From NCBI GenBank assembly GCA_036172245.1, contig JAYWIR010000035.1, positions 1,302,001-1,366,000 of the forward strand: a stretch of DNA of 64,000 nt, read 5' to 3'. The notes beneath the pieces were generated by a model, which was given only the letters and a program-made list of their open reading frames with translations, did no database searches and was not told the DNA's origin. Numbering within the stretch: the first letter of the stretch is position 1; each line of letters begins with the position of its first letter. Positions 1-26,700 of the stretch are shown here, one piece after another. A program made the translations under genes and the position numbers. This DNA comes from Raillietiella orientalis. Taxonomy: Eukaryota.

Positions 1-403
1 CCTCTGCCCCCGCTGGAACGTGCCTGCCCAACAGCACTGCCGGGTGACCTCCGTCTTTCCGATATCACTGCATTTCCCTTCAAAACCACTCCGACCGAGA
101 GGAAGAAAGGAAGGAAAACTCCCAAGCGTGGCATTTTTTTCATCCTCGGAAGCAGGGTCCAGAGCAGTTTCAGTTCAACTCAACAATTTTACCTCTACGT
201 GTTTCACATCGGAAACGACTTCTGGTTGCATCGGCGCTCCTCGTTGCAGCCAGGGAGTCTGCCAACGAGGGAAGTCCATCTCGAGCCCCGCGTTGGCAGC
301 GCCTGTAACGCGGTTGCCATTTACACGAGTCCCGTGTAACCAGGCAAACCCCAGAGACACCGAATTTATTTTGTGTAAATGCTGGAAATAATAAAATTTG
401 CGC

Positions 404-425
404 GTGTGTGTGTGTGTGTGTGTGT
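404..425. repeat. (GT)n microsatellite
   Basis: Read directly from the sequence. Confidence 0.9.
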
Positions 426-7150: not shown

Positions 7151-8276
7151 TCAGAGCATTTAGCCGGGAACTTTCCTTCAGACGCTCGTGCTGATGTGAG
7201 TCTTCAGCTCACCAATACGCTGGTGATCGACTTATAAAAGATGAAGGGCTCAAACAGAAGGGCTTCTGAGATTCGTTCGTCAGAAGAGCAAGGTGAACTG
7301 AAGTTAAGCAGGGGACACTTCAGGCGCGGAAACACTCCGGAAATTCCGGAAGCATTCCGGAAACACCGCAAGATGTAGTTCCGCTCACAAAAAGTTCTGC
7401 TATTCGATCGTCAGATCCGCAGTGCTGATTCACCCGGGAACGGATTCCGGTCAGCGCACTGTCCAAGATTTTGGCCAAGCTTGGCACCGGATGGAGCCAA
7501 GGCTGGGGCTGTGGGCTGCTGAACTTTCTAAAGGCACGCAAACCTTCCGTCGCTACCTTGCGCATCTGTGATTCACTCGGAAAGACTTGGGGCTCGTTTC
7601 GAACGAGGTCATTCTTTCTTCTCTTTCGAAAATACAAACTGTTGCCGTCTAAAAGCACATTGCCATCTAGAAAGCTGCTAGATCCTTTGTGATCCTGGAT
7701 GAGAAGGAAGCGTTGCAAAATGGGTCGCTTCGAGCATTCGCCCATCATCTTCCGCGGCTGGTGCCACTCTCTACTGTATTCGACTCGTTCTGCCCCCCCG
7801 GTGGAGCGCAAAGTCGAAATTCCGAAAGAACCTTCCATGAAAATGAATTAAGGATGCACTGCAGGATCATCGGGACTGCATCCAGCTGCAATGTTTCTTC
7901 TTCTCCCGAGACCTCAGTGATTCTGATGTTTCTTTGCCGAGTGGGCTGGATCCAGAGGGACTGCCGTCGCTCTTCTCTTGAGATGCACCACTGGAGACGG
8001 CTGCTTTTGGATGGATGAAGCCGAAGACCACCAGGGAATGCGATGGAGTCCGCTGCACCACTCTGGACACCAGAAGCTGGCTGCTTTTCCACTTGCGAGG
8101 ACACGACTCTCCTCATCTTCCTGCTTTCCCGGTCCCACTCTCCCCTACTCTTCCTAAGAAAATATGAAGCTGCTTCGTCCCAGCTTGTGCTCTTCTTGCT
8201 GCGGGACGTAGTCATTCAACCCTGAGGGGATATTCGATCGGAAAGATGGAACTCTTGTGGAGGTTTTCGAAAGGAC

Positions 8277-8282
8277 TTTATT
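8277..8282 (-). terminator. Putative nvd polyadenylation signal AATAAA
   Basis: AATAAA on the minus strand about 275 nt after the nvd stop codon. Confidence 0.4.
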
Positions 8283-8556
8283 TAAATCAAAATTCAAAGC
8301 TGTAGGCTGCCCGATTCCGAAAAATCGCGCTTCCGGATCCCAGCGCTTCGGGGCTTCCGGATTCGCGGTTCCGCATCTCGCGTTTTCTCCCGATGTCCGC
8401 CCCTTGTGCTGAGATCCAGGGTGACGATCCAGGAATCGGCCGCGGAGTGTCGGTGGAAAAAGCACTTTAGGAAGCAGAAGAATTAGCACCCACACGCCCG
8501 CACAAAAGGATGCGTTGGAAACTCTTGGGGAATTCTGCGATTTCCGGGAACGATAG

Positions 8557-8718
8557 CTACCAATCGATATCGTAGTAGAGAGATTCGATTGTAGGTGAGT
8601 TGGGGGAGTAAAACTGGTTGTACCATCTCCTGTGGTTCAAAATTTGCTTGTCTTCCTTGACTAGAGTTGGCTTCAGAGGTATTATCTTGTTATTCCATAT
8701 GTCGATGTCCCTTTCCAG
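8557..8718 (-). CDS. nvd: nvd terminal exon 7 (LERDIDIWNNK...YDIDW*)
   Basis: Acceptor TTTTCAG after a 62-nt intron; conserved Nvd C-terminus ending in DW; TAG stop. Confidence 0.93.
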   Translation of the reverse strand: MERDIDIWNNKIIPLKPTLVKEDKQILNHRRWYNQFYSPNSPTIESLYYDIDW

Positions 8719-11700
8719 CTGAAAATTGGCAAGGCAGCGGAAGGGTAGACTGTTGGCGTTTCCTCCAACGTTTCCTTTACCATGATCAGCTCTCCCAGAA
8801 AGACGAGTTTGCTGTAAAGGGCCATCACTCCCATTGGTGAGTACATGTGCTGCCTGATGCTCTGAAGGTTGGGCTCCAGTGGAGTGACGTTTTGGACGAG
8901 TACGCATTTTCCCCAGCTGCTCTCAAAATTCAGATGCACGATTCCTGGACCAATCTAAAAAATTAGCATAAAAAATTTTAAAAAAAAGGCATCCAGAGAC
9001 TGCAGCAAATTAAATGCACCCTTATTTTTATTTTATTTTTTTGTGGATGGCATTCAGCATCTCTTTGTTTCTCTTTTTCTTCCTTTCTTTTCTTTTTCTT
9101 TTATAGATTTCACTCACCAAAAAAAAAACACTAAGGAGTTTTTTTTCTTCTTCTTCAAGAGAGAAGAATATTGCGCATTCCGACTGCACCATCAACAACA
9201 ACAAAGCAGTACCTTGAGGATATTGTTCCCAAAGTCAACTTTATGATGCACGTTTGAATAGTAGATAATCTTATAATAAATCAGAAATAAATAAGATGAA
9301 GAAAAGGACTCCAATAAATCAAATACAGGATGCACCATTGCTAGCCTTGTAATTAAGGGAACAGTAATCTTCAAAGATGAGTTTACACCGGCCGTGCCTA
9401 CGCGGATGTTGGATACTCACCGAAACTAGAAGATTCAAAGCAAATTCAAAGCGAATCGCAAGAGTCTGGAACCTCAGATGAGGATCAAGGTCACAAGCAC
9501 ACGATTCTTTTAGCACGAAGGAGGTACGCGCTCTTTCGCGTGCAGCATGCGGATGCGGCTGCAGTTGAGTATCCGCAGAGCCTTCCGAATCGAGAAACGG
9601 TAAAACGAGAGTGTTCTTTCGAAAGATGCGACCCGTCGTTCTGTTTTCTTCACCACTGTTCGGATCCCTCCTCCCCCCCCTCTCTCTCTCTCCTCGATGT
9701 TTCTGATCTGTTATTGCGGTAACCGATATAAAAAAGAAAAAAAATGGAAAAAATCGGCGTCTGCTGTACCTGAACTCCTTTCACCTTCAGATTCAGTATG
9801 GACATGATGTTGGAGCATTCCAGCTTGTGAGTCAGGGACACATAGGAGAGATGCTTCTCCTCGTCAGAGCCTGGTCTCCATTCTGGATCGATCCATTTGT
9901 GCTTGAGGCTACTGGTGAGGATGGAGTTCGACCCTCCAAAGAGGAACGAGGAGTGGACGGCAGGAAAGTGACTGATGTCGCTTCCATTTTCTGGAATGTC
10001 CTGGTCACATTCGTTTATAGCCCTTTCTTTCCTTTTGCAATTCCCCCCCCCCCTCCTCCCCTAGGCACACCTGAATGTGGCACTGAACGGCATGGTTTGA
10101 GAATCCTCGAAGGGACCAGCCCTCGTCGTGGATGCCTTTGATCTTTTCCGGGAACCAATAAGGCTCGATCTCGTCCACATGGTGCCACACGTAGAGGAAG
10201 CCGTTGCCCTCCCAGCAGGGCCATATCCTCACGCGGACCGCCTTCGGGACTGGCAAAACAAAACACACATAGTGAAAAACAAAAGATCCGGGACCGAGTC
10301 CACGTTGGCACTCCTTTGACCGAAGAGGGATCGAAGCAGCTGTCTCCCGTGATCCACAATTCATTGCCGTGTAGGAGTCTTCAGAACGCGAGCTCCCCGA
10401 GATAAGCAAGTCCTCCTTGAGCCGAGCGCGAGGCTGCCCGTCCACGTGAGAACGAGGTCTTGGAAGAAGCGGGCAACAAGGGAAGGGGACAAGGTGCAGG
10501 AACACCCTCTCCTTCCCGTTGACAGAGGAGTACCGTTCACGGTGAGAGAACCGGTGACGGAATCCCTGGAGGTCGCAGGTCGCGGCGATGAGGTGCTCAC
10601 GAAAACCAGGATCCCTCGTGCGAGAGCAGGATACGTGAAAGAGAGAGAGGATATCTGTGCCCGCCAACGTCTGGCGCAGCTGGAACGTGCACTGTGGGCG
10701 TGCTCCTGATTACCAGCTAACCACCGTTGGCCGAGATCCGATTAGATGACAGGATGCTGAAAACTGTGGAGGAGGAAATGCATGCACGGCGGCTGGACAA
10801 ATCCCCGCGCAGCCCGGTCTCTGGATCCCGCCATGCCGAGTCAGGAAAAACAAGGATGTCCCGTGCGCTCCTCCATCGGTGTTCTTTACTGCGCGCTCTC
10901 GCATGTGTGTGAGGTGGCAGTTTGTGGACTTTGGCACGGAGTCTTTCGTTTCCGCGACGCGGTGTCTCTCTGTCGCACCCCGAGGCCCCGGCGGTCACGT
11001 CGGAGCCCTTGCATCCTCCAAGGAGGAGGGGTGAGTTCCTACTCCTTCATCCCGCCCACCACGGGAATTCAAACAGGGACCCAGCAGCTTGCAGCGAGAA
11101 GATGGTAATCCCTTCGATTCGAGCGCATCCAACCAGTTTCCCAGGGAGGACGAATTGTTACCCGGAGTTGGCCCCTTCGCTTCCGCCGAGGACTCCCCCC
11201 TTCATCCTCCAGGATGTAACATCAGTAGAAAAACGCGAAGTTGCTTTCTCTACTCTCCAAAAGTCTCGCGGAAATCGCGGAACAAATTCCACGCGTGCTC
11301 CGAGAGAAAAACAAAATAAAAAATGTCCGCCAAAGCAGGTCAGAGGTCACGCATTTGCGGAAGCAAATGCATGACCTCTGGACGCGACCCCCACGCGCCA
11401 CTGAATGCCTCGAAATCTGAGTACCTGAAGTGCTGTATGGTATTTCCTTGCAGCTCCCGTCGACTCCTTGGAAGCACCACTCGTGAAAGGGGCACACGAT
11501 GCAGTCATCTTTTACTTTGCCTCCGATCCCCATATGGGCCCCAATGTGAGGGCAGAACGCATCCATGATGAAGGCGTTCCCGGAGAACCCACGAAAGACC
11601 ACGAAAGCATTTCCTGGAAGGGAAGAGACGCGTCAGAAGTCTGGAAAGCACCAAAGCGCTAAAAGCGAAAATTCCGGGGCGCTGCGGTCGTTCTTTTGCT

Positions 11701-14700
11701 TCCGGAGCGTCGGTCTTCCCACGAGTCCAAGCCCTCAGGTCTTCTCCCCCACCCTCCGCCGAGGCGAACCATCCCGGGTTTCGCCCTTTGGGTTGCCTCG
11801 CGACGAACGAGCGCGCAGCTCCCCCCCCCCCCCTAAACTCGCCGTGTGCTCTGCTTCCATCTTGGATCGCCCATGGGGAGGGAGCTGGTGCTTTTCCCCC
11901 GCGTTCGCCCGAGGCGAAGGAAGCCGGGCATCTCCCCTTCCCCCTCGAGAAGGTAGGGCGGCGCGAGGAATCCCCACCCTCCGCGCGCGCTTCCGAACCG
12001 CTCCCCCCCCCGTACTTCTGCATCCCTCCCGCGAACAAGCGGGCGTAGGCTCGCGGGGCACCTAGTGACCAGCGGCACCGCCGAGCCTTCCTTCCCCAGC
12101 GAATGGCATCTCACCCACCCTGCCCGCCCCCTCTTAGAGAAGGAGGAAACTAATGATAATAATAATAACAATAACAATAAAAACTTGTGAGCGGCCACCT
12201 CGCCGAGGATAGAGCCACATTCCTGAGCGATGCCATTTTATTTTTCCCTCAGGAAGCCATGGGCGTTTCGTGGTCTTCCAGCGGGGGAAGGCGGCGCAGG
12301 TGCAAGCCCCGAGCTCTCCGACAGCGATGCCTGGAGATTCCTTTCTGGAGTGACCTTCAAGCAAATGAGATCGGTCCAGTGGGTGGAAACGCGTTCTCCA
12401 AGCGTAATGATCTCTATCCAAGGGAGGAGGTGGCTGTGGAACAAACAAGAGGAAAGCCACCTCGGCGATTCGCACGCTCCCGGCCGTCGTCGTCCGGAGC
12501 GAGGCGCGCTGGCGCCGCGGAACCAAAGAAAAAAGTCCGGGGTGCTAATTGCGAAGCGGATCCCGAGACGAGGCGCATCCTCGGCGCTCACGAATCCCTC
12601 CTGCGCGCGTGCGCCGAGCGCGTGCGCCCGCGCGCTTGTTTTACGACGTTTTCGCGCCGCAGCCCTCCTCCGATCGGAAGAGCGGCGGCGCTGCTCCCAC
12701 GAGCGACGGAGGTGGCGCGCGCATCGTCCTGCCTCTTCCGCGCGCGCGCGAGCGTGCCGTGCTGCCTCGGGAGACCTGAGGCAGCAGCAAGGAGGAGACC
12801 CCCAAGGGCAGAGGCCCCTTCCTTCCGATGAGACCGGGAGCGTCTTCCTGAACCCAGGGAATACGGATGCCGGCCACTTCCTGCCACGCCTCACCCCGTG
12901 CTCTGCAAAGAACGTTGGGCGAAGAGCCGTCTTTCGCGGGGAAAGTCCAGAACGTCCGCCTCTTCGACCCGCCGAGGTGGCTTCCTTCCAGAGATGCATT
13001 TCCAGGCGGGAAGACGAAGTGTCCACTCCCGCATCTGATTTTCGAATGTTACCCTTTGCGTGACCATTCTCCGGGGCACCTACGAAGGGGAAAGAAAGTT
13101 TTCCCAGCACCCGCTGGAAACGCCCGGGTGCGTGTCTCCTCCCGCTGGCTTTTCAGAGCTGACCTGTTTCCCAGCGCATCGTGGACCGAGATGGAGGACG
13201 TGGTAGGCCTTGCGACGATAGCCCATGCGTCTCCAAAAAAAAAAAAAACGAATTGGGAGCGTCCCCACCGCCCCATTCCAATCCCTGGTGAGCGACCGAG
13301 CCCGGTTTACGGGCACCGCATGGCGTGCGCATTTCTGAAGTCCAAGCCGGAGGGCATCCATGGTCGCCTTCGTCCCCTCTTGAAAATCTTTACGCGATCA
13401 AGAGCTCCATGGCGGCGGCAGAAATGGCTCGCGTGGAGGTCATCTTTTAGCGAACACCGGGTGTTTGGAAAGCACTTCAGCGATATGATGAGGCACCCTC
13501 CTCTCGATCAGGGCGGAACGCAGGGAAATGGACCGACCCTCGAGGTTTTGTCGGGCAGCAAAAGATACCCCTTGGGTCAATCGTAATGAGTCTTTGCGCT
13601 GACTCTTTGCTGCTCTAATGAGCGCTCGAATGAGTGCTGTGCGGGAGTCCTCGTCGGGAAGGAGTACAAAGGGTCTTACTGAATCCTGAATCCCAGTGCC
13701 CTTCGAAGACCCGAATGAGATCCGCAGTCGCGTACGCCCCGGTTCTGGAGCGATGACATCCCTTGGTATTGTGATGGGAAGGGGGGAGGAGGGGAGGAAG
13801 AGACAGTCGATATCAGAGATCCTTGCTTTGCGAAGGTCGGTCGCGATGCGGGAAGAGGGACGAGTCGGCGCCTTCTGCCAAAGAATTTTCCAGACCGTTC
13901 TTGAAAGATGGCCCCTCCCTCTTGCCGCCTCTTTCCTTCCACTTTTGGGTTTTTGGCTTCTTTCGCACGCGTCTTTTGACCTGCCCCAATTCGTGCTTTC
14001 CCGGCAGCGCCATGGAGTTTCGTCCCCGTTGCCTAGCGAAGGGGAAAATCTTAGCACGATCCAGAAACAGCACGAGACCTGCTCTTGTCGCAGGGACTTA
14101 ATCGTGCTGGTTGGAATCGATCGTATGCTGCGGTGCACCCTGCGAATATGTCAAAGAGGATCTCCCAAAATGAAACTCTGTCTGAGGGATGCTGAGAGCG
14201 CGAGCTTGCAGAGCCAACGAGCACGTGTGAGGTCGCGGAAGTTCGGAAAGCGTCCGAGAGGTTTGACGTACGTCAGAAGCAGGCGGGATAGAAAGTAAGG
14301 AAGGAAGAATAAAATGGAAGACATGCGCGCCGCAAAGTGGGATGGCGACAATCAGATTCGTCGTCACTTTGCGGAACTCTTGCGTTTCAGAGGAAAGGAG
14401 AGCGGTGCCAATTCCTTTGATTGCAAAAAGCATGCCCACACAAAAGTGGGGAGGGAGGGAGGGGGGTAGGATTTGACCTTTTTGTCTCCCCCATATCCTC
14501 TTCTTGTCTTCTTCTGCACCAGCGGAGGGCACGTTTCCCTCCTCTGGTGCCATGGAAACCGCGCTGCAAACCTCGTGCCTGAGTTTTCCTCTTCTCTCGT
14601 AGCCGCAGGGTATTCCAAGCTGCATAGGGCGTGCTGGAGCGTCCAGAGATGCCTGCAGGAGATCCAGCCCACGTATAGGAAAAGAACGCAGGCGGTACTC

Positions 14701-16002
14701 CTCTCAACATGGGCGCGCGCGCGCCACTGCTGCTGCTATTGAAGCCACCATCGCTCTGTGCCTTTCCCTCTTCCCATCCGGAAGGCGAACCCGAGCCGGC
14801 TTTGGGTCGGGTCGCAGCTGAAGCAGGAGTGGGGAGCAGCCACCACCCGTCGTCAACGCTCGTTTATGGCGGGAAGCGCGGGCTCGCCGAAACCGACGAC
14901 TTTCCCCGGCAACGCATGTTGTCACCGCAACGATCGGACGGCGGTAAAGACAAAGCGAAACGTGCGCGCGCGATGCGCGGCCTCCTGAATCGAGCATCCA
15001 AAAAAGAAAAAAAGTCAAAAAAAAAAAAAAAAAAAAAAAAAAAACACTCAAAATAAAAATAAGAAGAAAATCTCGCCGAGGAGCGCCCGTCTCTACTGCA
15101 GCTGCTACACCGTTCACTTGTTCAGCAGCGTAATGAACCATTTGCTGCTCAGCGTGGAGGAAGAGAGGAAACCGGTTCTTTCAGGCAGACCCGATGGGTT
15201 CCCAATGTCTTTTTCCAACCCACCCACCACGATCCGCGTGGAGACCGACCAAAACGGTCACCTCGTGCCGCTCAATGAAGCAACGAAAGCGAAGACGAGA
15301 TGGTTTTCCAGGCATCCGTGCACGCGATGGAAAGTGGCATTCGAGAAGGGGGGGGGGAGGGGGGCTGGAAGGAAAACCGTACTCTCCGGCCAACGTGCCT
15401 CGGGAACGAGCGTGATCGGCAGAGTATCCGGGCCACGTGACTCGGCAACGCACTCCCGTGGCTGAGGAAGATCGCGCGTGCAGGCGTTTCTCGGGTGCGG
15501 AGGAAAATAATCCGAGGCGAAAGCCACCTGCCGCCCGCGAACTCTCGAGTAACTGAGATGAACATGACCATACCCAGGGCATCCACTGGGCGAACAGCTC
15601 CCACCGGGACCTCCGTCGACGGCAGCAGCGCGAACCATCCATTAGGATAGACGGGTCGACTCTTCCCTTGCTTTCTGTGTTGGTGTCTCCGTCCCGAAAC
15701 CGCCGCCGCTTTCGTGCCTGCCATCTTGAAAAGGGAAAACGAATAACAATGGTGACGTCAACGCCGGGTGAAATCAAAACGAAAATGAAAAAAACCGGAA
15801 AAAGGGAAAAAATAAAATAAAATGAAATGAGGCAAAAAAAATAAATCGAAACGAAACACGGGCGGCACGCCGCGATGCAAATTTTCTTTTTTCTTTTTTT
15901 TCGGAAACTGGCAAAATTCCTTACGGAGGTTCTTTGCAGCGGCACACGAATGCACAGGCACACCAAGAGCGCGATGATCGCAGGCAGGAGCCATAAAGCC
16001 AT
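8557..16002 (-). CDS. nvd: Neverland/DAF-36-type Rieske cholesterol 7-desaturase; complement(join(8557..8718,8781..8954,9770..10000,10071..10249,11425..11613,15574..15724,15925..16002)), 387 aa
   Basis: Seven exons total 1164 nt and stay in frame with GT-AG junctions. Motifs: N-terminal hydrophobic anchor, PVYPNGWF, Rieske C-x-H-x17-C-x2-H (CPHIGAH...CPFH), mononuclear iron motif E-x3-D-x2-H-x4-H (ENGSDISHFPAVH), C-terminal ERDIDIWNNK and RRWYNQFYSPNS, all typical of Nvd. Confidence 0.95.
8781..8954 (-). CDS. nvd: nvd exon 6 (IGPGIVHLNFESSWG...VTPLEP...LIM)
   Basis: Acceptor CTAATTTTTTAG; Nvd IGPG and VTPxEP motifs; donor ATG|GTAAAG. Confidence 0.93.
9770..10000 (-). CDS. nvd: nvd exon 5, non-heme iron motif (DIPENGSDISHFPAVH...)
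   Basis: Translated by hand, since the ORF track shows only its tail. 231 nt open; acceptor GACCAG; donor CAG|GTACAG. Confidence 0.93.
10071..10249 (-). CDS. nvd: nvd exon 4 (VPKAVRVRIW...NGFLYVWHH...CHIQ)
   Basis: Acceptor TTTTGCCAG; Nvd-like NGFLYVWHH and CHIQ; donor CAG|GTGTGC, phase 0. Confidence 0.92.
11425..11613 (-). CDS. nvd: nvd exon 3, Rieske [2Fe-2S] domain
   Basis: Acceptor CTTCCCTTCCAG; DAFCPHIGAHMGIGGKVKDDCIVCPFHEW; donor CAG|GTACTC, phase 1. Confidence 0.95.
15574..15724 (-). CDS. nvd: nvd exon 2 (...RPVYPNGWFALLPSTEVPVGAVRPVDALG)
   Basis: Acceptor TTTTCCCTTTTCAAG; Nvd PxYPNGWF motif; donor G|GTATGG, phase 1. Confidence 0.9.
15753..15760. promoter_or_regulatory. Palindromic CRE (TGACGTCA) in nvd intron 1
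   Basis: Exact consensus match; function untested. Confidence 0.3.
15925..16002 (-). CDS. nvd: nvd exon 1 (MALWLLPAIIALLVCLCIRVPLQRTS, membrane anchor)
   Basis: First ATG after in-frame TAG TAG; hydrophobic segment; donor GTAAGG at 15924, phase 0, matching exon 2. Confidence 0.75.
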
Positions 16003-17299
16003 GCTCAGACGACGACAGGGCTACTAAGAGCGGAGAATACCACGAACATGCTGGCAACAGGTGCACGCACCACACACGCGGCGATCCTGCCTTTGACTAG
16101 CGGATACTACGTGCTGGTCCAGTGGCTTCGGCTGCGAGGAAAGAAAGATGTATGGAATGGAAGGGAAGTCGAGGGTTGCCGGATGTAAGCGGTGGCCGCT
16201 CAGCGGGCAGCGCTGGCGGAGTGCGCGGCGCGCGCGCGTGCGCGGGAGCGTGTCGAGGGGCAACCGTTTCCGCATCTCGGACGAACGGGGGCGCCGAGGC
16301 TCTGCCACGCCCCACCCCCCGAGAGGCTCCGTTTTTGCGGGAGCGACGCCGGATGATGAAACCGGGACGGGAGAAGGGGGCGAAGCTGAGGGAGGGAGCC
16401 GGGAGAGGGAAAAGCGAAGGGAAAACGAAGCGGGGACATCCTGCGGGTGGCCCGCCGGCGGCGCGCACTCGATCGCCAGCCCCGTCCTCTCATCCCCCCC
16501 CCCACACTTTCCTCGGCTCCTCTCATGAGACGTTCGCGATCTTTGCACCGAGACGGAAAAGGCCGCGCCCCTCCCTCCCTGCCTCCGGACGCTCGCGGGC
16601 AGGGAAAACCACGTGGAGCGTCGCATCGGGAGCGAAGGGAAGGAGCGCGCGTTCGTCCGGGAAAGTCCCGCCTCTCTCCTGCTCCCCTTCCCTATCGAAA
16701 CCGGAGAGCTTCTACGGGCTTCCCGAAGGAGGAGCCTGCCTTCCCAAAGCGCTCACATGCTCACCCCTCGGATTGAGCGTCTTCTCCAATGAGGTTGGCA
16801 AGTTGGCGGCGCCCCTTCAGCGGACCGGAGAGAGGCGATGGACGGGATGTGGAGTTCCCGGAAACGCGGCCTTCTCGATAGGCCACGTTTCGGCCTCCTT
16901 GGCCGCTCACCCCTTTGCGGCCTTGATTTCTCCGCGAGCCTTCTCATCCCTTTTCCTCCCCGGAGTCCCGGCTGATCCCCCGCGCTGCGTCCGGGAACGC
17001 TCGCGCACAGCGGAAGGGGAACCAAAAAGAGGGGTGGTGGAGCAGGAAAGCAGAGAAAGCCCCGTTTCACACTGAGAGCAGCAGCGGGAGAAGGAAGGGA
17101 TGGACCGGAGGTCGCGACCCCATCTTTCCATCCCCATCTTCGTTTCTTGAAAGCGGGGAGCACAGGACCACAGAAGCAGGAAAAAGAGGCGCCGCAGGTG
17201 GCAGCGGGCGAAGGCGGTGATGGTGGCCTTCGCGGTGGGAGCGCTGGTGGCAGCCTTGCTATCGACGGCGCGCCGCCCGGCGGTGGCGGTGAAGGCGCC

Positions 17300-18200
17300 G
17301 GCGTTGCCGCCAACGCGTCAACGCCAGGGCGAAAGCGGCCGCGACAGAGGTGACCTGGGCACCGTTGGCTCGGTCCGAGGGATGCTGAGCGCGTTCGCTG
17401 GAGCCAACAAGCACGTGTGAGGTTGCAGAAGTGTCCGGGGCCAGTGGACGCGATAGTGGCGATGACCGTTGGGCGCGAGGCGACGATGCTCATGGCAAGA
17501 TGGCCATGTAGGCATCGGCGGCAGCCCCCGGGGGCGAGTGCTGTGTGCGCGCCCGCATCGTTGTCAGCTCTCCGGTTTTCCTGGAGCGCCGGGATGAACC
17601 CGGAAATGGAGGAAAATGATCCGGACAAAGTCCGCTCACAATCCCGCGGATGTGCGTGGATCACCGAGTCCCGACGGCGCCAGGGTGCGCCAGGAGCGGG
17701 GATGCCAGGCACTCGCGCGTTCTCTCCCTTCTTCTCGTCGCGATACGATCCGTCCGTGTATTCAAGGAAGCGGGGGAGGTTCGTGTGGAGGAGGAGGTGA
17801 TGTGACCAAAGGGTGGGCGACATGACCGGCGAGAGAGGGTGGGGGGGAGGGAGAGGAGGGACCGTCGAACTGATGGAGAAAGTGCATTTGTAGGTGGATG
17901 CCGGAGCAGAGTTGGAGGGCAAGAGGGGGGATGAAGCCGGATAGAAGAGGCTGCTTGACAGGTCCCGAGGAGATAAACATGCATTGAGGAGGAGGGGGAG
18001 GGGAACAGAAGGGAGAAGAAGAGAGGACGGGATACCCACCTGTTTCCGTCGCTGCGGTGAGGGAACCAGATGGTTCGCCTGGAACCGATGCAGTCGGCGC
18101 GCCGCACTCACGGGACCGTCCTTGGGTCGGTGTTTTCGGTGTGCGTTCAAGGCCGGGTCTCCTCCTTCCAGCCCGCCGCCTAGCGCCGCCGCGTTCCCGT
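17300..18200 (-). mobile_element. Possible decayed RNase H-bearing LINE (I-group-like) fragment; ends approximate
   Basis: FLEYTDGS resembles the RNase H YTDGS motif. It is preceded by SGSLTAATETGGYPVL, resembling the post-RT SLxAExGxxPL motif. Confidence 0.3.
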
Positions 18201-19702
18201 GTCCTCACGGGACGGGCGATGCGATGCCTCCAGGCGGAGGAGTGGGAAAGGACTCCCCTTTCCTCGACGCCACCGTGCGTCCCCCTGCGAGTGTTTGAAG
18301 GAAGCGAAAGCCTTGCTGCCGCCGCCCCCGGAGGTTCCCCCCACCTCGGCCGGAGCGACGGCGCGCTTCCTCCGTCCGAGTCTCGTCACCTCCAACGAGG
18401 GAATCGCCAGCTCTTCCCAAGCCCTTCCGTTTTGCCGTGCTGCAAGGAGACCGGTTCTCCTGCCTCGGGGAAAAAACTGTTGCTCAGAATATGCCGCTCG
18501 TTGGAGCGGCAGCCCCTCCTCCGCACGCGCACAGTGGGGTGGGCGCGCGTCCCCCAACCGCCTCCTTCAAGCGTCTCGCGTGATTTCCTGCCTCTCCGCC
18601 ATGGCGATCGGGGGGGGAGGGGGGGAGCAGTTTGAAAAACCCTGCGGTGCGATTCTCCGCTCAGCCGGGACAAGAGACGAAAGGGGACGGAGCGAACTGT
18701 CCGTTTCCCGCCCGCCCTCCAGGGCGAACCATCAGCGGCGGATTCCTCGGGACCTGGCAGCCGGAAGCCGGCGGGAGGCAGCAGAACCCCACGCTACCCG
18801 GAGCCGATTTGCCGGTTGAGGTGCACTCCGACGGGCAGCGCCACGGAGCACGCTCCGTTTCGATCGCATCCGCCTCCTGACCAATGTCAGGAGGCCTTCC
18901 GAACCGTCCGATGGATCACCCGGAGGTCGTCGCCGGACCCATGGCAACCCACGAGCGAGAGAAGAACCTGCAGGCGCTGCCAGTCTCCTGGGATGATCCC
19001 CGGCTGCTCGAGAGTCGTGTCTCCTTTCAATCAATGAGAGCGTGGGTCTCATTGATTCGTGTGCGGATTTCGCCCGCATTTGGATTTCATTTCATTGTTT
19101 TCTTGTTCTTGTCTCTTCCACCCCCCCTTCTTGCAACAATGCTCTGCAGCAGCTTTTCAGAGCATTGTTGGCAACAATGCTGGTCGGGATCATGTGATCG
19201 GAAACGGAGCTGCGGCTCGCGTTGGTTGCTCAGCAACCGGATTCCTCCGCATGCCACCTGGAGAAATGCAGTTTCGGGGCGCGCGCGGCTGAGTCCGCGC
19301 GCACACGCGGCTGCCGCCGCCCTCTCGAACGCGTGCAAGGAACCGGACGAACGCGTGTTCGCTGCGGGACGCCCCGTCCGGTTGCCTCGTCCGCGCATCG
19401 TTCCGGCAACCGTTCTTCGAGCCTCCATCACGGCTCGCAGTGACGAAAAGTGACTGGGATCTTCCCTCTGTTCAGCCGCGCGCGTCCCCTGACAACGACC
19501 CGCTGGTCGCGCGTCTTTGGGAGCGAAGAGCCTCGCTCGTTTCGACGGCGAGGAGAAGGGGAAAAGTCTAGCAGGGAGGGAGCAAGATGGAGACGTTTCT
19601 GCGGAAACCACGTCTCCGGGATTCCCGTGCCCCGAGCGGCGGCGCTGTTTCACAATCCTCCTCTTCAAACATCCGCTCTGAGAGGAACGAGGGAAGAATT
19701 TG

Positions 19703-19733
19703 CCTCCTCCTCCTCCTCCTCCTCCTCCTCCTC
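19703..19733. repeat. (CCT)n microsatellite
   Basis: About 10 units, read directly. Confidence 0.9.
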
Positions 19734-20106
19734 TTAGCTCAGAAGATCTGCTGGTGGGTCTTTCCCGTTCCCTTCGCCCAGACATCGAATCGAGCGGCCA
19801 CGGGGAAGACGCCTGCTTCCCGAGGGCTGCGGGCAGCCAGAGATTCCTGGCCGACTGGGACGGCTAGGGGGGCGAGGGGAAGACGAAAAAAGACACTGAC
19901 GCACGCGCACACGCAAGCAAAAAAAAATGCGGAGGGACCAACGGGGAGAAAGAAAGGTGTGCGCGTTTCCTACGCTGGAGATGCGCGTGCTCTCGCACGC
20001 GGAGCTGCTCGTTTTCCGCGTTTCGAAAGAGAGAGAGAGGGGGAAAGAAGAAAACGCGCGCACGTACGCACGCACGCACGCACGCACGCGGAGACAGCAG
20101 CAGAAG

Positions 20107-20107
20107 C

Positions 20108-20145
<38 letters not shown>
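20107..20145. repeat. (CAA)13 microsatellite
   Basis: Read directly; preceded by a (GCAC)n run near 20067-20088. Confidence 0.9.
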
Positions 20146-20146
<1 letters not shown>

Positions 20147-20279
20147 AGCACAAAAAGAGTGTGGGGGATTGGTTTAGGATACGCGGGAGAGAATGAGGGA
20201 AAGGAAAAGTCGAAAATGAAAAATGAAAATCGCGGCGCGTACGCGCGTACGGCCGAAGCGAAAATGGATCTCTCGGATT

Positions 20280-20299
20280 GCGCGCGCGCGCGCGCGCGC
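20280..20299. repeat. (GC)10 alternating tract
   Basis: Read directly from the sequence. Confidence 0.9.
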
Positions 20300-20746
20300 C
20301 CCACTCTGCCACCGAAACTTCTTACGTGTGTGTGTCTGTTGTGTGTTTTTGAATGTTTGCTCCGGTCTTCCTTTTCTTTCCCTTTTCTCAATCCCGAAAA
20401 TCCCGAGCCCTCTTCTGGATTCGTGCGAAAAAAAAAAAAATAAAGATGCAGGCGAAGGCAAAAAAAAAAAACAAAAATCGCGCGCGCAGTCCGGCCGCCA
20501 GGCGAGGACGAACGAGCGAGGAGCGTGCGCGCTTGCGCAGGCGCCGCGCGCGCCCCGTGTTCCTCTGGTGGCGGGCGGCGGTGGCGGGGAGAGGAGGAGG
20601 AGGGGGGAGGGAGGAGGAGGGGGAGGGAGGTCCGCGCGCGCGACGACGAATCGCTCGGGGAGACGTCGATCGGCCGAATATCGGCCATCTTCGTACTCTC
20701 GATTTTCTTTAAAACATCTCTTGCTGCCTTGTCGATCTGGAGTTGC

Positions 20747-20780
20747 TGACGTAACCACCTCGATCCTAATATAGGGCGGG
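20747..20780 (+). promoter_or_regulatory. Candidate CYP307 proximal promoter: CRE-like TGACGTAA, TATA-like TAATATAG and GC box GGGCGG
   Basis: Motifs lie 52-85 nt upstream of the ATG; sequence match only. Confidence 0.35.
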
Positions 20781-20831
20781 CGATCGGCTGCCGTCGACAC
20801 AACACTCGGTGACCGATACTCGGTGCCTAAG

Positions 20832-21222
20832 ATGGAGCTGACGCTAACACCGCTGACCTACCTGCTGCTGACTGTCGTTTTCGTTCTTCTGGTGTTCACG
20901 AGTTCGGCGCAGACGGTCCCATACCTGGTCGGCTCGAAGGGGAAATGTCTTTCCCGGCGCCGGCGGCCGCCCGGCCCGTGGTCCATGCCTCTTCTGGGGA
21001 ACCTGCTATCCCTGGGCAAATACGAGACTCTTTCGGAAGCCTTCGCCGACCTGAGGAGCAAGTACGGAGACGTGTTCTCCCTGCAGCTGGGCAGCCAGAG
21101 GTGTGTCGTCGTGAGCAGCTTCCCCGTCATGAAGGAGGTGCTCATCAAACGCGGCGTCAGCTTCAGCGGAAGGCCCAACTTCCTGCGCTACCACCGGCTA
21201 TTCGGTGGCGACCGGGATAACT
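20832..21222 (+). CDS. CYP307: CYP307 exon 1
   Basis: ATG at 20832; transmembrane anchor; PPGPWSMPLLGNL; ends GGDRDN with donor T|GTGAGT. Confidence 0.92.
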
Positions 21223-23614
21223 GTGAGTTCCTCCTTAATTCCCTGTCGTTGCTATTGTTGCTCTTGTGACTGGATGTTCCGTGCGGGTGAGCGCGTGCAT
21301 TCTGCTGCTCCTTCCCTCTGTGGGGGAAGAAAAAGTCCCTACCGATCCCGCCTCCTCCCGTGCCCGGATTTTTTTCCCTTTGCTGTTTTCCCTGTTTGTT
21401 TTCTTTCTTTCTTTGTTGTTTGCGTGCTTTATGCGTACGCATGCGTTCCTCCCGTTCTGCGCCAGAGGGCAGGGGAGATGTGTCTTCCTGAGCACGCGGA
21501 GTCCCGGTTTTCCTTTTTTGTCCCCGGTTCCTCCCCCAGAGGGGGGAGAAGGTGGGAGGATGGGTGGGGAGAATCGGAGGGAGGAGACGAGCCCGTCCCG
21601 TTATTCCGTCCGTTCCCCTCCTTCCTGAGGGAGCTACCCTCCGTCACATGCGACCGGCAGGACCTCGACCGCCGCTACGACGACGACTGCGACGTCTTAG
21701 GGGCGGCCAAACTCCTTCCCTCCCCCCCCCCTCCTCTTTTTTTTTCTTGTTCCTCCCCACTCCTCTTTTTTCTTTTTTTTCTTGTTCCTCCCCCCCTCCT
21801 CTTTTTTTCTCTTGTTCCTCCCCCCTCCATTTTTGCCGGTCTGTCCTCGGGAACCGGCGTGGGCGCAACCGCAGTTTCCGCAGCGGCCCGAACGCTCGCA
21901 GAAGCAGCAGCGCGCCGCTTTGCTCCCTGCCCGGCGGGATGCCGCGCCGCCGACTCCCGATCTTCTCGCACGCGCGCTGAAATGGAGAGTGCGCGCGAGC
22001 GCGTGGATTTTCCTTTCCCGGGTCTCCGGAGCGTCCGATGCTCACCTTCATCCAACCGAGCAGCCTGGGTATCCTTGAACTTGAAGATTCACCGTTAGCC
22101 GCTCACTTTCTCTGCCGCTTCCGCGATGTGACGTCATCGCTGTGGGGCAGTAGGACAAGAGTATCCGCTCTTTCGCTTCCTACATTTCTCACGTGATTTT
22201 TTTTTCTTTTTGTGGCCCCCCAGCTCTCGCCCTGTGCGACTGGTCGGACCTGCAGAAGACTAGGAGGAGCATCGCCCACAGCTTCATGTTCCCGCGCCCG
22301 TCCAGCCAGAAAGGCGACCTCCTGGAAGAATCCATCAGCCGGGAACTGGACCACATGATGGAGGCCTTGCGCTCCCGCGCGGACGAGTGCCTGAAGCCCA
22401 AATTCCTCCTGCTGCGGACCTGCGCCAACATCTTCTGCCAGTACCTCTGCTCCCAGAGGTTTGACTCCGAGGACGAGCAGTTCCAGAAGATGGTCCGGGA
22501 ATTCGACTTCATCTTCTACGACATCAACAAGGGATATGCCTTCGACTTCCTTCCCTGGATCTCCTGCTTCTACTCCGGCCACTTCGCGAAGCTGGAGGGC
22601 TGGAGCAAGAGCATCCGGAAATTCATCCGGGACCGCATCATCTCCGTGCACTGCCAGGAGGCGAAGGACTCCCAGAGGCCCACGGACATGGTTGACGCCC
22701 TCATCACGCACGTCAAGGAGGAGGGCAATGACGTGGGCTGGGAGATTGCTCTCTTCGAGCTGGAAGACCTGCTAGGGGGCAGCTCGGCGGTGGGCAACTT
22801 CTGGATGCAGGCGCTGGTAAAGATATCCTCGCTCCCGGATGTCCTGCAGAACATCCAGAAGGAGATATCCGAGGTCACGGGCAACGAGAGACCCGTCTGC
22901 CTCGAGGACCGGCCTCGCATGCCCTACACCGAAGCGACCATCATGGAGTCTCTGCGCACGATCTCTTCGCCCATCGTCCCTCACGTCGCCGTGGAGGACA
23001 CACAACTCACAGGTGAGCGCCATCCAGAACCCTCATTCCACTCCCCCTTTCCCCACGCTTCCGAACCGGGAGCTGCAGCTCTCCCTGCCTGAAGCGGTGG
23101 ACTCTCGGAGAGAATCCCAGAGATCACGACTTCTGCGACCGCAGAGGGGAAGGGGTGGGGGCCTCGCGGGCAGCTCCTGGTGCCTCTCCGCTTCCTTTTT
23201 CCTTTTCCCCCTCCCCCGCTCCGAGTGTACTGCCGGCCCCCGCACGAGACACACGAAGGAGCTCTGCTTCCCTTTCCAGATTTCCACATTCCCTCGGGAA
23301 CCATGGTCTTCCTGGACAACCACGATCTCAACAACAACCCTCGATTCTGGAAGGACCCCCATGAGTTCGACCCCAGCCGCTTCGTCAAGCTCGGGAAGCT
23401 CTCGAAGCCCGAGTACTTCATACCATTCAGCACGGGAAAGAGGGCGTGCATGGGCCACCGCCTGGTCAGCACGGTCACCTTCCTGGGGCTGGCGAGGATA
23501 CTACAGGAGTTTTCCCCGGAGCTGCCCGGTGGGGTGTCCTCGGAGGACCTGCCGAAGGGATGCCTCGCCCTGCCCTTCGACACGTTCTCCATGGTCTTCT
23601 CCCCGCGCCAGTGA
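20832..23614 (+). CDS. CYP307: Cytochrome P450 CYP307 family (spook/spookier-like, CYP2 clan); join(20832..21222,22224..23012,23280..23614), 504 aa
   Basis: 1515 nt in frame with two phase-1 GT-AG introns. ER anchor plus PPGP hinge; CYP307 hallmark FGGDRDNSLALCDWS spanning intron 1; I-helix LEDLLGGSSAVGN; ExxR (ESLR); PERF-like PSRF; heme motif FSTGKRACMG. Confidence 0.95.
21722..21828. repeat. Imperfect polypyrimidine tandem repeat, about 3 copies of CTCCTC(T)nCTTGTTCCTCCCC, in CYP307 intron 1
   Basis: CTTGTTCCTCCCC occurs three times with variable T-run spacers. Confidence 0.75.
22129..22136. promoter_or_regulatory. Palindromic CRE (TGACGTCA) in CYP307 intron 1
   Basis: Exact consensus match; function untested. 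Confidence 0.3.
22224..23012 (+). CDS. CYP307: CYP307 exon 2
   Basis: Acceptor polypyrimidine tract plus CCCCAG; SLALCDWS through the I- and K-helices; donor CAG|GTGAGC. Confidence 0.95.
23280..23614 (+). CDS. CYP307: CYP307 exon 3 (heme-binding)
   Basis: Acceptor CCCTTTCCAG; FDPSRF; PFSTGKRACMG; TGA stop. Confidence 0.95.
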
Positions 23615-23775
23615 GAGCGCCTCGGGACCGCCGCCGTCCCTCGCCTCTCCCCTCTGAAGCGCCGACCGGCACCGACACCTCTCCTCTCGACCTGTACCAA
23701 AAACTTCCACTCCAGGGGAAGGTCACAGTACAAAAAAGCTTTGTGATGTCTTGTTGCAAATTTTACTTAAACGTT

Positions 23776-23781
23776 ATTAAA
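23776..23781 (+). terminator. Putative CYP307 polyadenylation signal ATTAAA
   Basis: ATTAAA in a short AT-rich patch about 160 nt after the stop, within otherwise GC-rich sequence. Confidence 0.5.
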
Positions 23782-26700
23782 GTCTAATTTTATACACTCC
23801 CTCGGTTCCGGGAGGAGGGGATGGGAAGAAGGGCACGGGAGGGGAGTACTCGCGGACTAGCCCCTCTGCATCCTCAGGAGACGCGAGAGACCTCGCGCCG
23901 CGGAGCGGGGATCCCTTGATCACCCCTAAGGAACGCTCCGAAAGTAACAGCAGAAGGGGGTGGAGGGGGAGAGGCTGCTATTCCTGGGAGCAACCTGAAG
24001 AAGGAGGAAGGGAAAAGTAGGAGGGGGGGGAAGGGAATGGGGAGAGTTCGCCTCCTGGAGGAAGAGGAATGGAGCGCGTGTGGAGGAAGAAGGAAGGGAA
24101 GCTGCTACAGCGGCGGTGGCCTCCTGCGCCAGGGAAAACGCCCAAGAGGCGCTGTTTCGTCTCTAGGAGGCAACGACATCTCCTAGCATGGTAGTGTGCC
24201 CCCTCCTTCCCCTCCTCCTCTTTCCCTGAGACTCCTTCGTGCCAAAACCTGCCCGCTGGAGGGGGCTGCGGGAGGAGGAGTGCCGAGGAAGGCTGCGGCC
24301 CTCGAGGTTCCAGGTCTTCGCATCCCCCTCGCCCGAGGGAGAGGCGGACCTTCTTCTTTCCTGCCTCTCCTCCCCCCCCCTCCCCGCACGCTCCTTCCCG
24401 GGGAGCGGGGCGCGCGCGTTGCTCCGTCGCTTCGGATCGCCACTGGACGCCAGGCCAGTCCCTGAGGGAACGCGGAGATGCCGGGAGACTTCCGAAGACC
24501 CTCCAGGCGGCGAACTCTTGCAGGATGGGTTTATTGTGTTTGCGGAGTCGCCCACGTAGCTAGGCAACAGCGGCAGACACCCTTGGAAACCCGACATGTC
24601 CTGAGCATCCCCCCGACGCGCTCCCGAGGCGACGCCTCGGGACGGGCGCAGCGGGGAGAGGTTTGGCGCCGAGCCGACCTCGACCTCCCGCAGACACGGG
24701 CAGCAGCAGCGCCGCCAACTCCGTTTCCTGGGAGCGGAGAACTCTCCAGGGTGAGCCGTTTCAATGGCGTCTGTGCGTGCTCCGACTGGGAGGCGGCGGG
24801 CCGAGTGTTTCCCGGAAGGCCCCCAGGACCCACCGCGCGCGGGTCCTGGAGGATGGACGGGGCGAGGAGAAAGGAATTAGCGTTCCTTATCACGCGAAGA
24901 GCAGCAGCCGGCTATCGACGGGAGAGTGCGGGAGGAGATCCGTGCGATCCTGAGAAAGAACACGAACCCTCCCCTTCCCCTTCCGCTCCGCTCTCTCGCA
25001 AAGTCTGTTCTCCAGGTAGACGGGCCTGGGATGACTGAACCCCAGGACCCATCCCCGATAGCGGTCCCCGATTCTTCCTCCCTCGGGACAGCGTGCCTGG
25101 ATCGCGAGAGGCTGGAGGGACGGTGAGGGTGGGATCCGTGAGGAGGGGGAGGTTCCTGCCGGGGTATCCCCCCTTGAGAGCTCCGTCCGGGTTCGCCTCC
25201 ACCCGAAAGGAGTGGAGGAAACGGGTGCTCGCCGGCTCCACATGCGGCCTGGCAGCCTCCTTGTCGCTTTTCCCTGAGCCATCCTGTCCGAACACCGCCC
25301 GGGGCTGTCGGGTGGCGGGCGATAAAACAGGTCGTTGGGGTGCTGCACCGCCGGCAGCGCCGAGATGTGGTCATCTTCGGGGTGCTGTTCCCCATCGCCC
25401 GGGGGGAGGGGGGGAAAGGACCTCTTCTGCGCTTTTATCGAACGGTGCCGCCGCCCGTGGAACACCCGAAGTTCCACCTCCCTGCTGCCTCCCTTCCCCC
25501 GATCCCCAGGGGTGGGAGACGGAAGCGGGGCCCTCGCGCCGCCCTTTCGAAGGTGCCTACCGGAGGCGGCGGTGACAACCCGGCCGTGCCGGTCGGGGTG
25601 CGCCCTGACTGGCCTTTAACGGGCAGGAACGGACGTCCACGCGGCCAGGCCGTTCTCCAGAGGACACGCCGGTGATGGCGGAGGGGCGCGCGGCGGGCGA
25701 TCCAGAAGCCCCGACAGGCGAGCCGGGGAGAATGGCCACCACTTGGCGGCGCTCCCGCTCCTCGGAGACGGGACTGCCCGCTCACCTGCCCGTTTCGTGG
25801 AGTCGTTCCGTAGCTCTCAGCGCACGCGCCGTCCGCACGGCGACGGCGGCGACTCCTGGGCAGCAGGAAGGAAGGACCTGCGCGCCGGCTCGGAGGAGAA
25901 CCCGGATGCCGGGTCTCTGGAGGCGCTCCTCCGGTCCCAAGCCTCCGCCCAGTAGTCGCCCTGCTCCCATGAAGGGGTGCGCCTTTCGCACCCCGCTCCG
26001 GGTGGCGAAAGGCTTGCGCACCCGGTCACCTCACGAAAGGAGCGGCGTACGGACCCCAGTGGGGTGTGGAGACAGAGCGGTGAGTCGGCGACCCTCAAGC
26101 AAAATCGATGGACGTCCGCTATTTTGTTCTGGGATAAGGCTGGGTCGGGTTCGAATCCCGAGGCGCAATGGCTGGCGGCTAAAGAGACATGGAATCGTTA
26201 TGATCGGTGACTGTTATGATTGTTATGGTTGTCATGGTTTCCAGCGGCATCTTTGGGGCCCCACGGAACCTCAGCAGACCTTGAAATCTCTAATTGGCGC
26301 TTCCACGTGAGCACGACACGTCCCTAGCGTGACGGGGCGTTGAGGACCCACGCCGGTGAACACCTGCGCGTGGACACGCTCCGCGGTGTTTCGAAGAGAA
26401 CTGGCGAGCAGCGGTCCGTCGGGTGAAAACGCCTTTGGCGCGTTTCGCCCTCCGGGCGCGCCGCCGATCGGCGCGGCTCCTCGTGGGGAAGGGGAGGAGG
26501 GGAAAGCTGCCGCGCGTCCGCCTCCGCCCTGTTCCTCTCGGGGTGCCGAAACCAAGACACTGTGGTCCCGCGTCACGCCGGGAGGGGGTGGAAGAGACGA
26601 GAGGGCGGTGCGGGTTCCTGGAAGAAAAATTCCCTCCCCCTCACCTTCCTATTCCTCCGGAGGGGAGCGCGAGAGAGAGAATGAGAAACGCGCGGATCCT

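What the first reader, a model, noticed from the sequence alone, without database searches (positions are those of the whole stretch)
8557..23614. Head-to-head neverland + CYP307 (spook) pair: a two-gene ecdysteroid biosynthesis unit
Seen: two intact, structurally unrelated oxygenases (a Rieske enzyme and a P450) are divergently transcribed, with start codons about 4.8 kb apart and no recognisable gene between them. Established: Nvd converts cholesterol to 7-dehydrocholesterol, and CYP307 is required in the following Black Box stage of ecdysone synthesis. Inference: this is a small animal biosynthetic gene cluster kept together by shared cis-regulation. I recall nvd-CYP307 linkage being noted in some arthropods, so the pairing itself may not be new. 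A shared bidirectional control region in this lineage would be the untested part.
Basis: partly seen in the sequence, partly recalled or inferred. Interest (0 to 1): 0.85.

Follow-up and report, generated by a model that had tools for sequence, protein, structure and literature searches.

The report
Neighbouring neverland and spook moulting genes
Two intact genes for early steps in making the arthropod moulting hormone sit back to back in this crustacean-like genome, a neighbourhood already reported in 2008, so the window adds an example but no proof that the genes share a control switch.

Summary
The window holds an intact 7-exon neverland gene (minus strand, 387 aa) and an intact 3-exon CYP307A-type (spook) P450 gene (plus strand, 504 aa). 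They diverge, with 4,829 nt between the start codons and no recognisable gene or RNA between them. The pairing is not new: Rewitz & Gilbert 2008 (PMC2276477) reported spo next to nvd in Daphnia and Anopheles and within 60 kb in three Drosophila species. My proxy survey extends this: same contig or chromosome in 23 of 26 species, accession numbers within three of each other in 11 of 26. Orientation and spacing in those species could not be read. Shared cis-regulation is plausible but not shown: no RNA run was listed, and of 16 motif scans of the spacer only GAGA repeats were enriched. In Drosophila each gene has its own proximal element, plus one shared factor. Two untested leads remain: a full CRE in the first coding intron of both genes, and splice-like signals for a possible untranslated nvd leader exon near the CYP307 start. 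Verdict: new member of a known arrangement; modest interest.

The parts
15925..16002 (-). neverland coding exon 1 (start codon, hydrophobic membrane anchor)
   Evidence: in-frame stop 18 nt upstream of the ATG; least certain exon, weak homology
15574..15724 (-). neverland exon 2 (basic linker, PVYPNGWF motif)
11425..11613 (-). neverland exon 3 (Rieske [2Fe-2S] ligands C-x-H...C-x2-H)
   Evidence: Pfam PF00355 E 1.4e-14; alignment
10071..10249 (-). neverland exon 4
   Evidence: matched by 8 of 8 foreign Nvd queries
9770..10000 (-). neverland exon 5 (non-heme iron motif E-x3-D-x2-H-x4-H)
8781..8954 (-). neverland exon 6
8557..8718 (-). neverland exon 7 (ERD motif, stop codon); AATAAA at 8282
   Evidence: Pfam PF19298 E 1.6e-10
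16003..20831 (.). 4,829-nt spacer between the start codons, 63% GC; holds both 5' regions; no recognised gene; candidate shared control region (function untested)
20832..21222 (+). CYP307 exon 1 (membrane anchor, proline hinge)
22224..23012 (+). CYP307 exon 2 (SLALCDW, I-helix LEDLLGGSSAVGN, ExxR)
23280..23614 (+). CYP307 exon 3 (heme motif FSTGKRACMG, stop codon); ATTAAA at 23776
15753..15760 (.). palindromic CRE-like 8-mer in the first coding intron of nvd (lead only)
22129..22136 (.). palindromic CRE-like 8-mer in the first coding intron of CYP307 (lead only)
16003..16131 (-). possible spliced 5' leader of nvd: strong acceptor-like site before 16131, with a 14-codon upstream ORF from 16049 (untested)

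Best explanation
This is a crustacean-type copy of the ancient nvd-CYP307A gene neighbourhood. Neverland is a membrane-anchored Rieske oxygenase that removes two hydrogens from cholesterol to give 7-dehydrocholesterol. CYP307 is a microsomal P450 that carries out one oxidation in the following Black Box stage of ecdysteroid synthesis; its exact substrate is unknown. Shown here: both genes are intact, carry their cofactor motifs, are orthologue-like and diverge across 4.8 kb. Established elsewhere: the two enzyme roles and the linkage. Inferred: the pair has stayed together because the two genes share a regulatory neighbourhood (enhancers or an open chromatin domain active in the steroid-making tissue), while each keeps its own core promoter. 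I put about 0.95 on gene identity and inherited linkage, and about 0.55 on a shared regulatory neighbourhood being what maintains it.
For: Identity: 118 of 1,496 candidate proteins passed E 1e-20 for CYP exon 2, and every one named to family was CYP307/spook; best 256 bits against 86 bits for the best solved P450. The spliced protein is 43-52% identical to the 40 best CYP307 hits. It has the two phase-1 introns at positions matched by exon breaks in genomic CYP307 loci L003, L005, L015, L021 and L029; a two-intron gene is proposed as ancestral in PMC2276477 (section 6). Nvd is 37-44% identical to 36 of 36 Nvd/DAF-36 proteins with all Rieske and non-heme iron ligands kept. Regulation: in Drosophila Mld is needed for both nvd and spok and their elements are nearly identical 15-mers (PMC5788525); in blue crab Y-organ both rise about twofold at induced premoult (PMC8415587).
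Against: No expression or chromatin data for this organism. In the spacer 1 of 16 motifs was enriched (GAGA, p 0.004 uncorrected); FTZ-F1-like sites 2 observed against 0.54 expected, p 0.086; the Drosophila Sean/Ouib core is absent from the window. In blue crab Disembodied also doubles, spook is about 14 times more abundant than nvd, and nvd falls after early premoult while spook does not, so co-induction needs no linkage and the profiles are not identical. The linkage is not universal: different scaffolds in a millipede and in Hyalella (the Hyalella nvd scaffold is only 27 kb); 0 of 32 metagenome CYP307 loci carry nvd, though only 5 hold 5.5 kb or more upstream and those 5 look mite-like, springtail-like or CYP307B-like; beetles have lost nvd (PMC13449613) yet keep CYP307. 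Accession adjacency is a proxy and gives neither orientation nor distance.
Confidence: 0.55

Rival explanations
1. True bidirectional promoter: nvd starts with an untranslated exon a few hundred bases from the CYP307 start (donor-like site at 20326 on the minus strand, acceptor-like site at 16131), so one short promoter fires both genes and most of the 'spacer' is an nvd 5' UTR intron.
For: The acceptor-like site before 16131 scores as high as the best true acceptors (top 5 of 262 AG sites on that strand) and a donor-like GTAAGA lies about 500 nt upstream of the CYP307 ATG. Nvd in Daphnia, Palaemon, Macrobrachium and Schistocerca has several RefSeq accessions for one protein, which usually means alternative untranslated exons (inference). 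Both first coding introns carry a full CRE-like 8-mer, 2 of only 4 in the window.
Against: Seven donor-like sites on that strand of the spacer are about what chance gives, and equally strong acceptor-like sites occur on both strands of the spacer. The CRE coincidence (p 0.0006 for these two introns) was found after the fact; 24 8-mers are shared by the two introns and another equally rare one (4 window copies) is among them. No CRE was seen in the first introns of the few related loci that include them. In Drosophila the genes can be up to 60 kb apart with separate proximal elements.
Confidence: 0.2
2. Inherited neighbourhood without present function: the genes became neighbours in an early pancrustacean or arthropod and have stayed so in many lineages through slow local rearrangement, each with fully independent control.
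For: Linkage is broken or stretched in several lineages; no clear shared motif; co-induction also holds for other Halloween genes; phm-CYP18A1 is a second conserved Halloween pair of enzymes with different roles.
Against: PMC2276477 notes little other microsynteny around Halloween genes between insects and crustaceans, yet this pair persists in decapods, amphipods, cladocerans, mayflies and locusts. In this window the two genes are 4.8 kb apart while no other gene was recognised in the 49 kb outside them.
Confidence: 0.22
3. Artefact or misidentification: a mis-join in the spacer, a hidden gene between the two, or a P450 outside CYP307.
For: No reads could be laid on the spacer; it holds microsatellites; the trees lack non-CYP307 outgroups; the window Nvd is on a long branch.
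Against: The same pair is adjacent in many species; no N in the window; no Pfam, Rfam or tRNA hit in the spacer; CYP307-specific motifs and intron positions are present.
Confidence: 0.03

Closest known systems
nvd-spo(k) microsynteny of Daphnia pulex, Anopheles gambiae and Drosophila spp. (Rewitz & Gilbert 2008, PMC2276477)
   Same: The same two genes as neighbours; a two-intron CYP307A-type gene as in Daphnia; the paper already points out that they act in succeeding steps (passages and section 6 read).
   Different: A different lineage (no protein closer than about 52%). The text gives no orientation (it is in Fig. 2B, which I could not see) and, in the passages read, tests no shared control.
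Drosophila melanogaster nvd and spok under Seance, Ouija board and Molting defective (Uryu et al. 2018, PMC5788525)
   Same: The two genes are co-regulated as a pair: Mld acts on both and the two 15-bp elements are nearly identical (passages and Discussion part 1 read).
   Different: Each gene has its own proximal element and its own factor, with no cross-reactivity; the factors are found only in Drosophilidae; the 9-nt core of those elements is absent from this window.
Malacostracan CYP307 (spook) and Neverland, e.g. Penaeus, Macrobrachium, Trinorchestia
   Same: Serine at the I-helix position where 44 of 56 homologues have histidine (10 of 10 malacostracans have serine); neighbouring accession numbers for the two genes.
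   Different: The window P450 is outside the malacostracan clade; it sits beside it and a barnacle with only 81% SH-aLRT. The window Nvd is shorter at the N-terminus and on a long, unplaced branch.
Bacterial 3-ketosteroid 9-alpha-hydroxylase KshA (PDB 2zyl, 4qdc)
   Same: Closest solved relative of a Nvd homologue (searched with the amphipod Nvd P0119); shared Rieske plus KshA_C domains.
   Different: Soluble bacterial hydroxylase of steroid breakdown; Nvd is a membrane-anchored C7 desaturase (established knowledge).

Membership tests
Neverland/DAF-36 cholesterol 7-desaturase | Rieske [2Fe-2S] motif C-x-H-x16-17-C-x2-H | tested here: met
   Pfam PF00355; four ligands aligned with 36 homologues
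Neverland/DAF-36 cholesterol 7-desaturase | Non-heme Fe(II) motif E/D-x3-D-x2-H-x4-H and C-terminal KshA-like domain with ERD | tested here: met
Neverland/DAF-36 cholesterol 7-desaturase | N-terminal membrane anchor before the Rieske domain | tested here: inconclusive
   Exon 1 encodes a hydrophobic stretch, but the N-terminus is shorter than in 36 of 36 homologues and has no RNA support; no topology predictor was run
Neverland/DAF-36 cholesterol 7-desaturase | Full-length similarity to named Nvd proteins | tested here: met
   37-44% identity, E 2e-88 or better, to 36 of 36; position inside the family unresolved
Neverland/DAF-36 cholesterol 7-desaturase | Converts cholesterol to 7-dehydrocholesterol | not testable with these tools
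   Needs an enzyme assay
CYP307 family | More than 40% identity to named members (P450 nomenclature rule, recalled) | tested here: met
   43-52% to the 40 best hits; all family-named hits CYP307; other P450s far lower
CYP307 family | Family motifs: SLA(L/F)CDW, I-helix LED..GG.SA without the usual threonine, ExxR, heme cysteine | tested here: met
   alignment of 57 rows
CYP307 family | Two conserved phase-1 introns | tested here: met
   same breaks in genomic loci; PMC2276477 section 6
CYP307 family | Monophyly against CYP306, CYP18 and other CYP2-clan outgroups | not tested
   No outgroup sequences were in hand; the tree holds CYP307 only
CYP307A (spook/spookier type) rather than CYP307B (spookiest) | A-type motifs (SLALCDW, FSTGKR) and exclusion from the B clade | tested here: met
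   Motifs; outside a 16-row clade with SH-aLRT 100 that I label B from its motifs (quick tree, no bootstrap). Identity is below the 55% subfamily rule, so the subfamily name is provisional
CYP307 family | Required for a Black Box step of ecdysteroid synthesis | not testable with these tools
   Needs knockdown and precursor rescue
Conserved nvd-CYP307 microsyntenic pair | nvd and CYP307A adjacent with no gene between | tested here: met
Conserved nvd-CYP307 microsyntenic pair | Same orientation as in other species | not testable with these tools
   No arthropod locus with both genes was obtained; Fig. 2B of PMC2276477 not visible
Bidirectional promoter pair | Divergent transcription starts within about 1 kb (definition recalled) | tested here: inconclusive
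   Start codons are 4.8 kb apart; transcription starts unknown; a leader exon is possible
Bidirectional promoter pair | One element drives both genes; co-expression | not testable with these tools
   No RNA run listed
Biosynthetic gene cluster (plant/fungal sense: three or more unrelated pathway genes, recalled) | Three or more non-homologous pathway genes together | tested here: not met
   Only two genes recognised in 64 kb; the introns of the two genes were not scanned against Pfam

The most novel reading that the evidence does not exclude
Across Pancrustacea nvd and CYP307A are held head-to-head by one shared switch. In this genome nvd begins with an untranslated exon within a few hundred bases of the CYP307 start, and paired CRE sites in the first introns tie both genes to cyclic-nucleotide moulting signals. 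The spacer would then be a single, deeply conserved gate on the entry to ecdysteroid synthesis and a compact place to find the unknown non-drosophilid regulators of both genes.
Probability: 0.2. Interest if true: 0.6.

Novelty: new member of a known kind. Interest (0 to 1): 0.22.

Why it matters
The pair itself is textbook-adjacent: known enzymes in a neighbourhood published in 2008. Its value is practical. The factors that switch on nvd and spook outside fruit flies are unknown (stated as open in PMC5788525). A clean 4.8-kb divergent spacer in a gene-poor stretch is a good substrate for a dual-reporter test. The proxy survey also suggests that the linkage is far more widespread in crustaceans and hemimetabolous insects than the three groups named in 2008, which would make a proper orientation survey worthwhile. 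If one element drives both genes, it would be a rare animal case of pathway genes held together by regulation.

Tried and rejected
No own genome is held, so copy number and other Halloween loci could not be checked. Sequencing-run search over 15400-23800 listed none; this is no evidence on expression, and no reads were laid. Dermauw et al. 2020 (PMID 33169702), which I recall as a broad arthropod P450 survey that may discuss this linkage, is not held; I did not see it. Metagenome scan for CYP307 loci: 32 loci, 0 with nvd (the same queries found the window's nvd exons); 27 of 32 hold under 3.4 kb before the match and are uninformative. The careful CYP tree did not finish twice; only the quick tree is used. 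Lineage could not be fixed: the P450 leans to crustaceans (81%), the Nvd long branch falls near arachnids at the midpoint root, which I treat as unreliable. The 50%-representative search gave unnamed hits and was not used further. Hidden gene in the spacer: rejected as far as Pfam, Rfam and ARAGORN can see. EcRE, DRE, POU octamer, HR3 and strict TATA motifs: none in the spacer (consensus patterns recalled). Paper searches for a study of orientation or a shared promoter showed none in their listings; most listed papers were seen as listings only, subscription papers are missing, and no supplements or figures were read, so a published orientation survey may exist. PMC11675983, PMC3851169, PMC6170570, PMC13449613, PMC8863297 and bioRxiv 2025.04.14.648839 (passages only) contain no 'synten' match in their main text. 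No complex or structure prediction was run: binding between the two enzymes is not claimed.
Full report
1. Observation. I rebuilt both genes from the sequence. Neverland lies on the minus strand in seven coding exons from 16002 to 8557 and gives 387 aa. The P450 lies on the plus strand in three exons from 20832 to 23614 and gives 504 aa. Neither has an internal stop or frameshift, and all eight introns are GT-AG. The start codons are separated by 4,829 nt (16003-20831). Pfam finds the Rieske and KshA_C domains in nvd exons 3 and 7 and the P450 domain in all three CYP exons; 5 of the 9 exons scanned hit a family. In the spacer, 93 stop-to-stop frames of 30 aa or more gave one Pfam hit, the CYP exon 1 frame. 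Rfam and ARAGORN find nothing in the window. Outside the pair, 475 frames (55 aa or more for 1-8556 and 44001-64000; 75 aa or more for 23615-44000; four frames overlapping the CYP coding sequence and a few duplicates left out) gave no Pfam hit. The introns of the two genes were not scanned. So the pair is real and sits in a stretch with no other recognised gene. Small exons could be missed.

2. The P450 is CYP307, spook type. With exon 2 as query, 118 of 1,496 candidates passed E 1e-20, and every hit named to family is CYP307 or spook. The best score is 256 bits, against 86 bits for the best solved P450. The spliced protein is 43-52% identical to the 40 best hits. It has the family's SLALCDW motif, an I-helix without the usual threonine, ExxR and the heme cysteine. 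Its motifs are those of the A type, and a quick tree of 57 CYP307 rows leaves it outside the 16-row clade that I label CYP307B from motifs (SH-aLRT 100). The careful tree did not finish and there is no non-CYP307 outgroup. Both introns are phase 1, after residues 130 and 393, and genomic CYP307 loci break at the same places. PMC2276477 (section 6 read) proposes a two-intron gene as ancestral.

3. The Rieske protein is Neverland. It is 37-44% identical to all 36 Nvd/DAF-36 proteins compared and keeps the four Rieske ligands, the non-heme iron motif and the ERD motif. It is divergent: the longest branch in the tree, unplaced. Its N-terminus is short (49 aa before PVYPNGWF against 68-176). An in-frame stop lies 18 nt upstream of the ATG, so either the protein is short or an upstream exon is spliced in.

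4. Lineage. No database protein is closer than about 52%. The P450 has serine at an I-helix position shared with 10 of 10 malacostracans, where 44 of 56 homologues have histidine, and it groups weakly with a barnacle and the malacostracans (81%). Unchecked scan notes on other pieces of this genome also call it crustacean-like. I treat it as a non-insect pancrustacean without close sequenced relatives; this is an inference.

5. The linkage is known and widespread. Rewitz & Gilbert 2008 (PMC2276477, passages) state that spo is adjacent to nvd in Daphnia and Anopheles gambiae and that nvd is within 60 kb of spok in three Drosophila species. They note that the two act in succeeding steps. Orientation is shown only in their Fig. 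2B, which I could not see. To extend this I took every species with an assembly record present in both of my hit lists or their 90% clusters; Diaphanosoma had no contig record and was dropped. That leaves 26 species. Accession numbers are within three of each other in 11 of 26: Trinorchestia longiramus, Penaeus monodon, P. chinensis, Palaemon carinicauda, Macrobrachium nipponense, M. rosenbergii, Daphnia pulex (UniProt ids), D. magna, D. sinensis, Cloeon dipterum and Schistocerca gregaria. Periplaneta and D. carinata are within 15. Ten more share a chromosome or scaffold with uninformative or unchecked numbers, and Cherax lacks a contig record for nvd. Hyalella (27-kb nvd scaffold) and the millipede Chamberlinius have them on different scaffolds. 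This is a proxy: it shows neighbourhood, not orientation or distance, many species are close kin, and no chelicerate pair could be tested. Against universality, 0 of 32 metagenome CYP307 loci carry nvd. Only 5 of them hold 5.5 kb or more upstream, and these look mite-like, springtail-like or B-type. Beetles have lost nvd (PMC13449613, passages) but keep CYP307.

6. How it most likely works. Established: Nvd converts cholesterol to 7-dehydrocholesterol, and Spook/Spookier acts with Shroud and possibly others in the poorly known steps to 5-beta-ketodiol (PMC5788525); the substrate of CYP307 is listed as unknown (PMC8863297). Shown here: both genes are intact and divergent. Inferred: the pair persists because the genes share a regulatory neighbourhood. 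In Drosophila, Mld is needed for both genes and their response elements are near-identical, but each has its own proximal element and factor, without cross-reactivity, and these factors exist only in Drosophilidae. In blue crab Y-organ both genes double at induced premoult, but so does Disembodied; spook is about 14 times more abundant, and nvd falls after early premoult (PMC8415587, passages). Co-regulation is therefore likely, but it does not require one promoter.

7. What the spacer shows. It is 63% GC within a GC-rich zone at 10-30 kb and holds (CCT)n, (ACGC)n and (CAA)n repeats. Of 16 recalled motifs tested against 500 dinucleotide shuffles, only GAGA repeats were enriched (6 against 1.4, p 0.004 uncorrected). 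FTZ-F1-like sites at 16926 and 18147 give p 0.086. No EcRE, DRE or strict TATA box was found. The Drosophila Sean/Ouib core is absent. Two leads came up. First, the palindromic CRE 8-mer occurs four times in the window, once in the first coding intron of each gene (15753, 22129), and a CRE variant lies at 20747 upstream of the CYP start. Uniform placement gives p 0.0006 for those two introns, but the regions were picked after seeing the sites, and another 8-mer as rare is also shared. Second, an acceptor-like site before 16131 scores with the best true acceptors, and a donor-like site lies at 20326 on the nvd strand. An untranslated nvd leader could thus start close to the CYP307 promoter. Such sites are not above chance in number. 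Neither lead is evidence without RNA, and no run was listed.

8. Novelty. The genes, their roles and their neighbourhood are known. Nine paper searches listed no study of orientation or of a shared promoter; the library lacks most subscription papers, among them Dermauw et al. 2020, and I read no figures or supplements. Two genes do not meet the usual definition of a biosynthetic gene cluster. Verdict: new member of a known kind, interest 0.22. The bold reading, one shared bidirectional switch conserved across Pancrustacea, has probability about 0.2 and would merit about 0.6.

Noticed in passing
window 14176-14242 and 17369-17432: A 67-nt element, 81% identical, occurs in nvd intron 2 and in the spacer in the same orientation; probably a short dispersed repeat.
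   Followed up: partly
window 16049-16005 (minus strand): A 14-codon upstream ORF, out of frame with nvd, ends two bases before the nvd start codon. It could be a regulatory uORF, chance, or a sign that the 5' model is incomplete.
   Followed up: partly
window 38000-47000: A second GC-rich zone (56-66%) with long open frames but no Pfam, Rfam or tRNA hit; unexplained.
   Followed up: partly
window 10000-30000: The gene pair lies in a GC-rich zone (54-68% against 42-49% in the flanks); third-codon GC is 0.86 in CYP307 and 0.66 in nvd.
   Followed up: no
window 15875 (nvd intron 1): A POU octamer-like site lies in the 200-nt first intron of nvd, 120 nt from the CRE-like site; 6 such sites in the window. 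The POU factor Vvl is named as needed for Drosophila nvd expression.
   Followed up: no
window CYP307 exon 2, I-helix: Serine in place of the histidine of the CYP307 GGHSA motif, shared with all 10 malacostracans and one caddisfly among 56 homologues; might mark a substrate or lineage difference.
   Followed up: partly
L016, L020 (metagenome loci): Apparently intronless, mite-like CYP307 genes with 10 kb of flank on each side and no nvd.
   Followed up: no
window 1478-1521: A 44-nt imperfect palindrome, 86% self-complementary.
   Followed up: no
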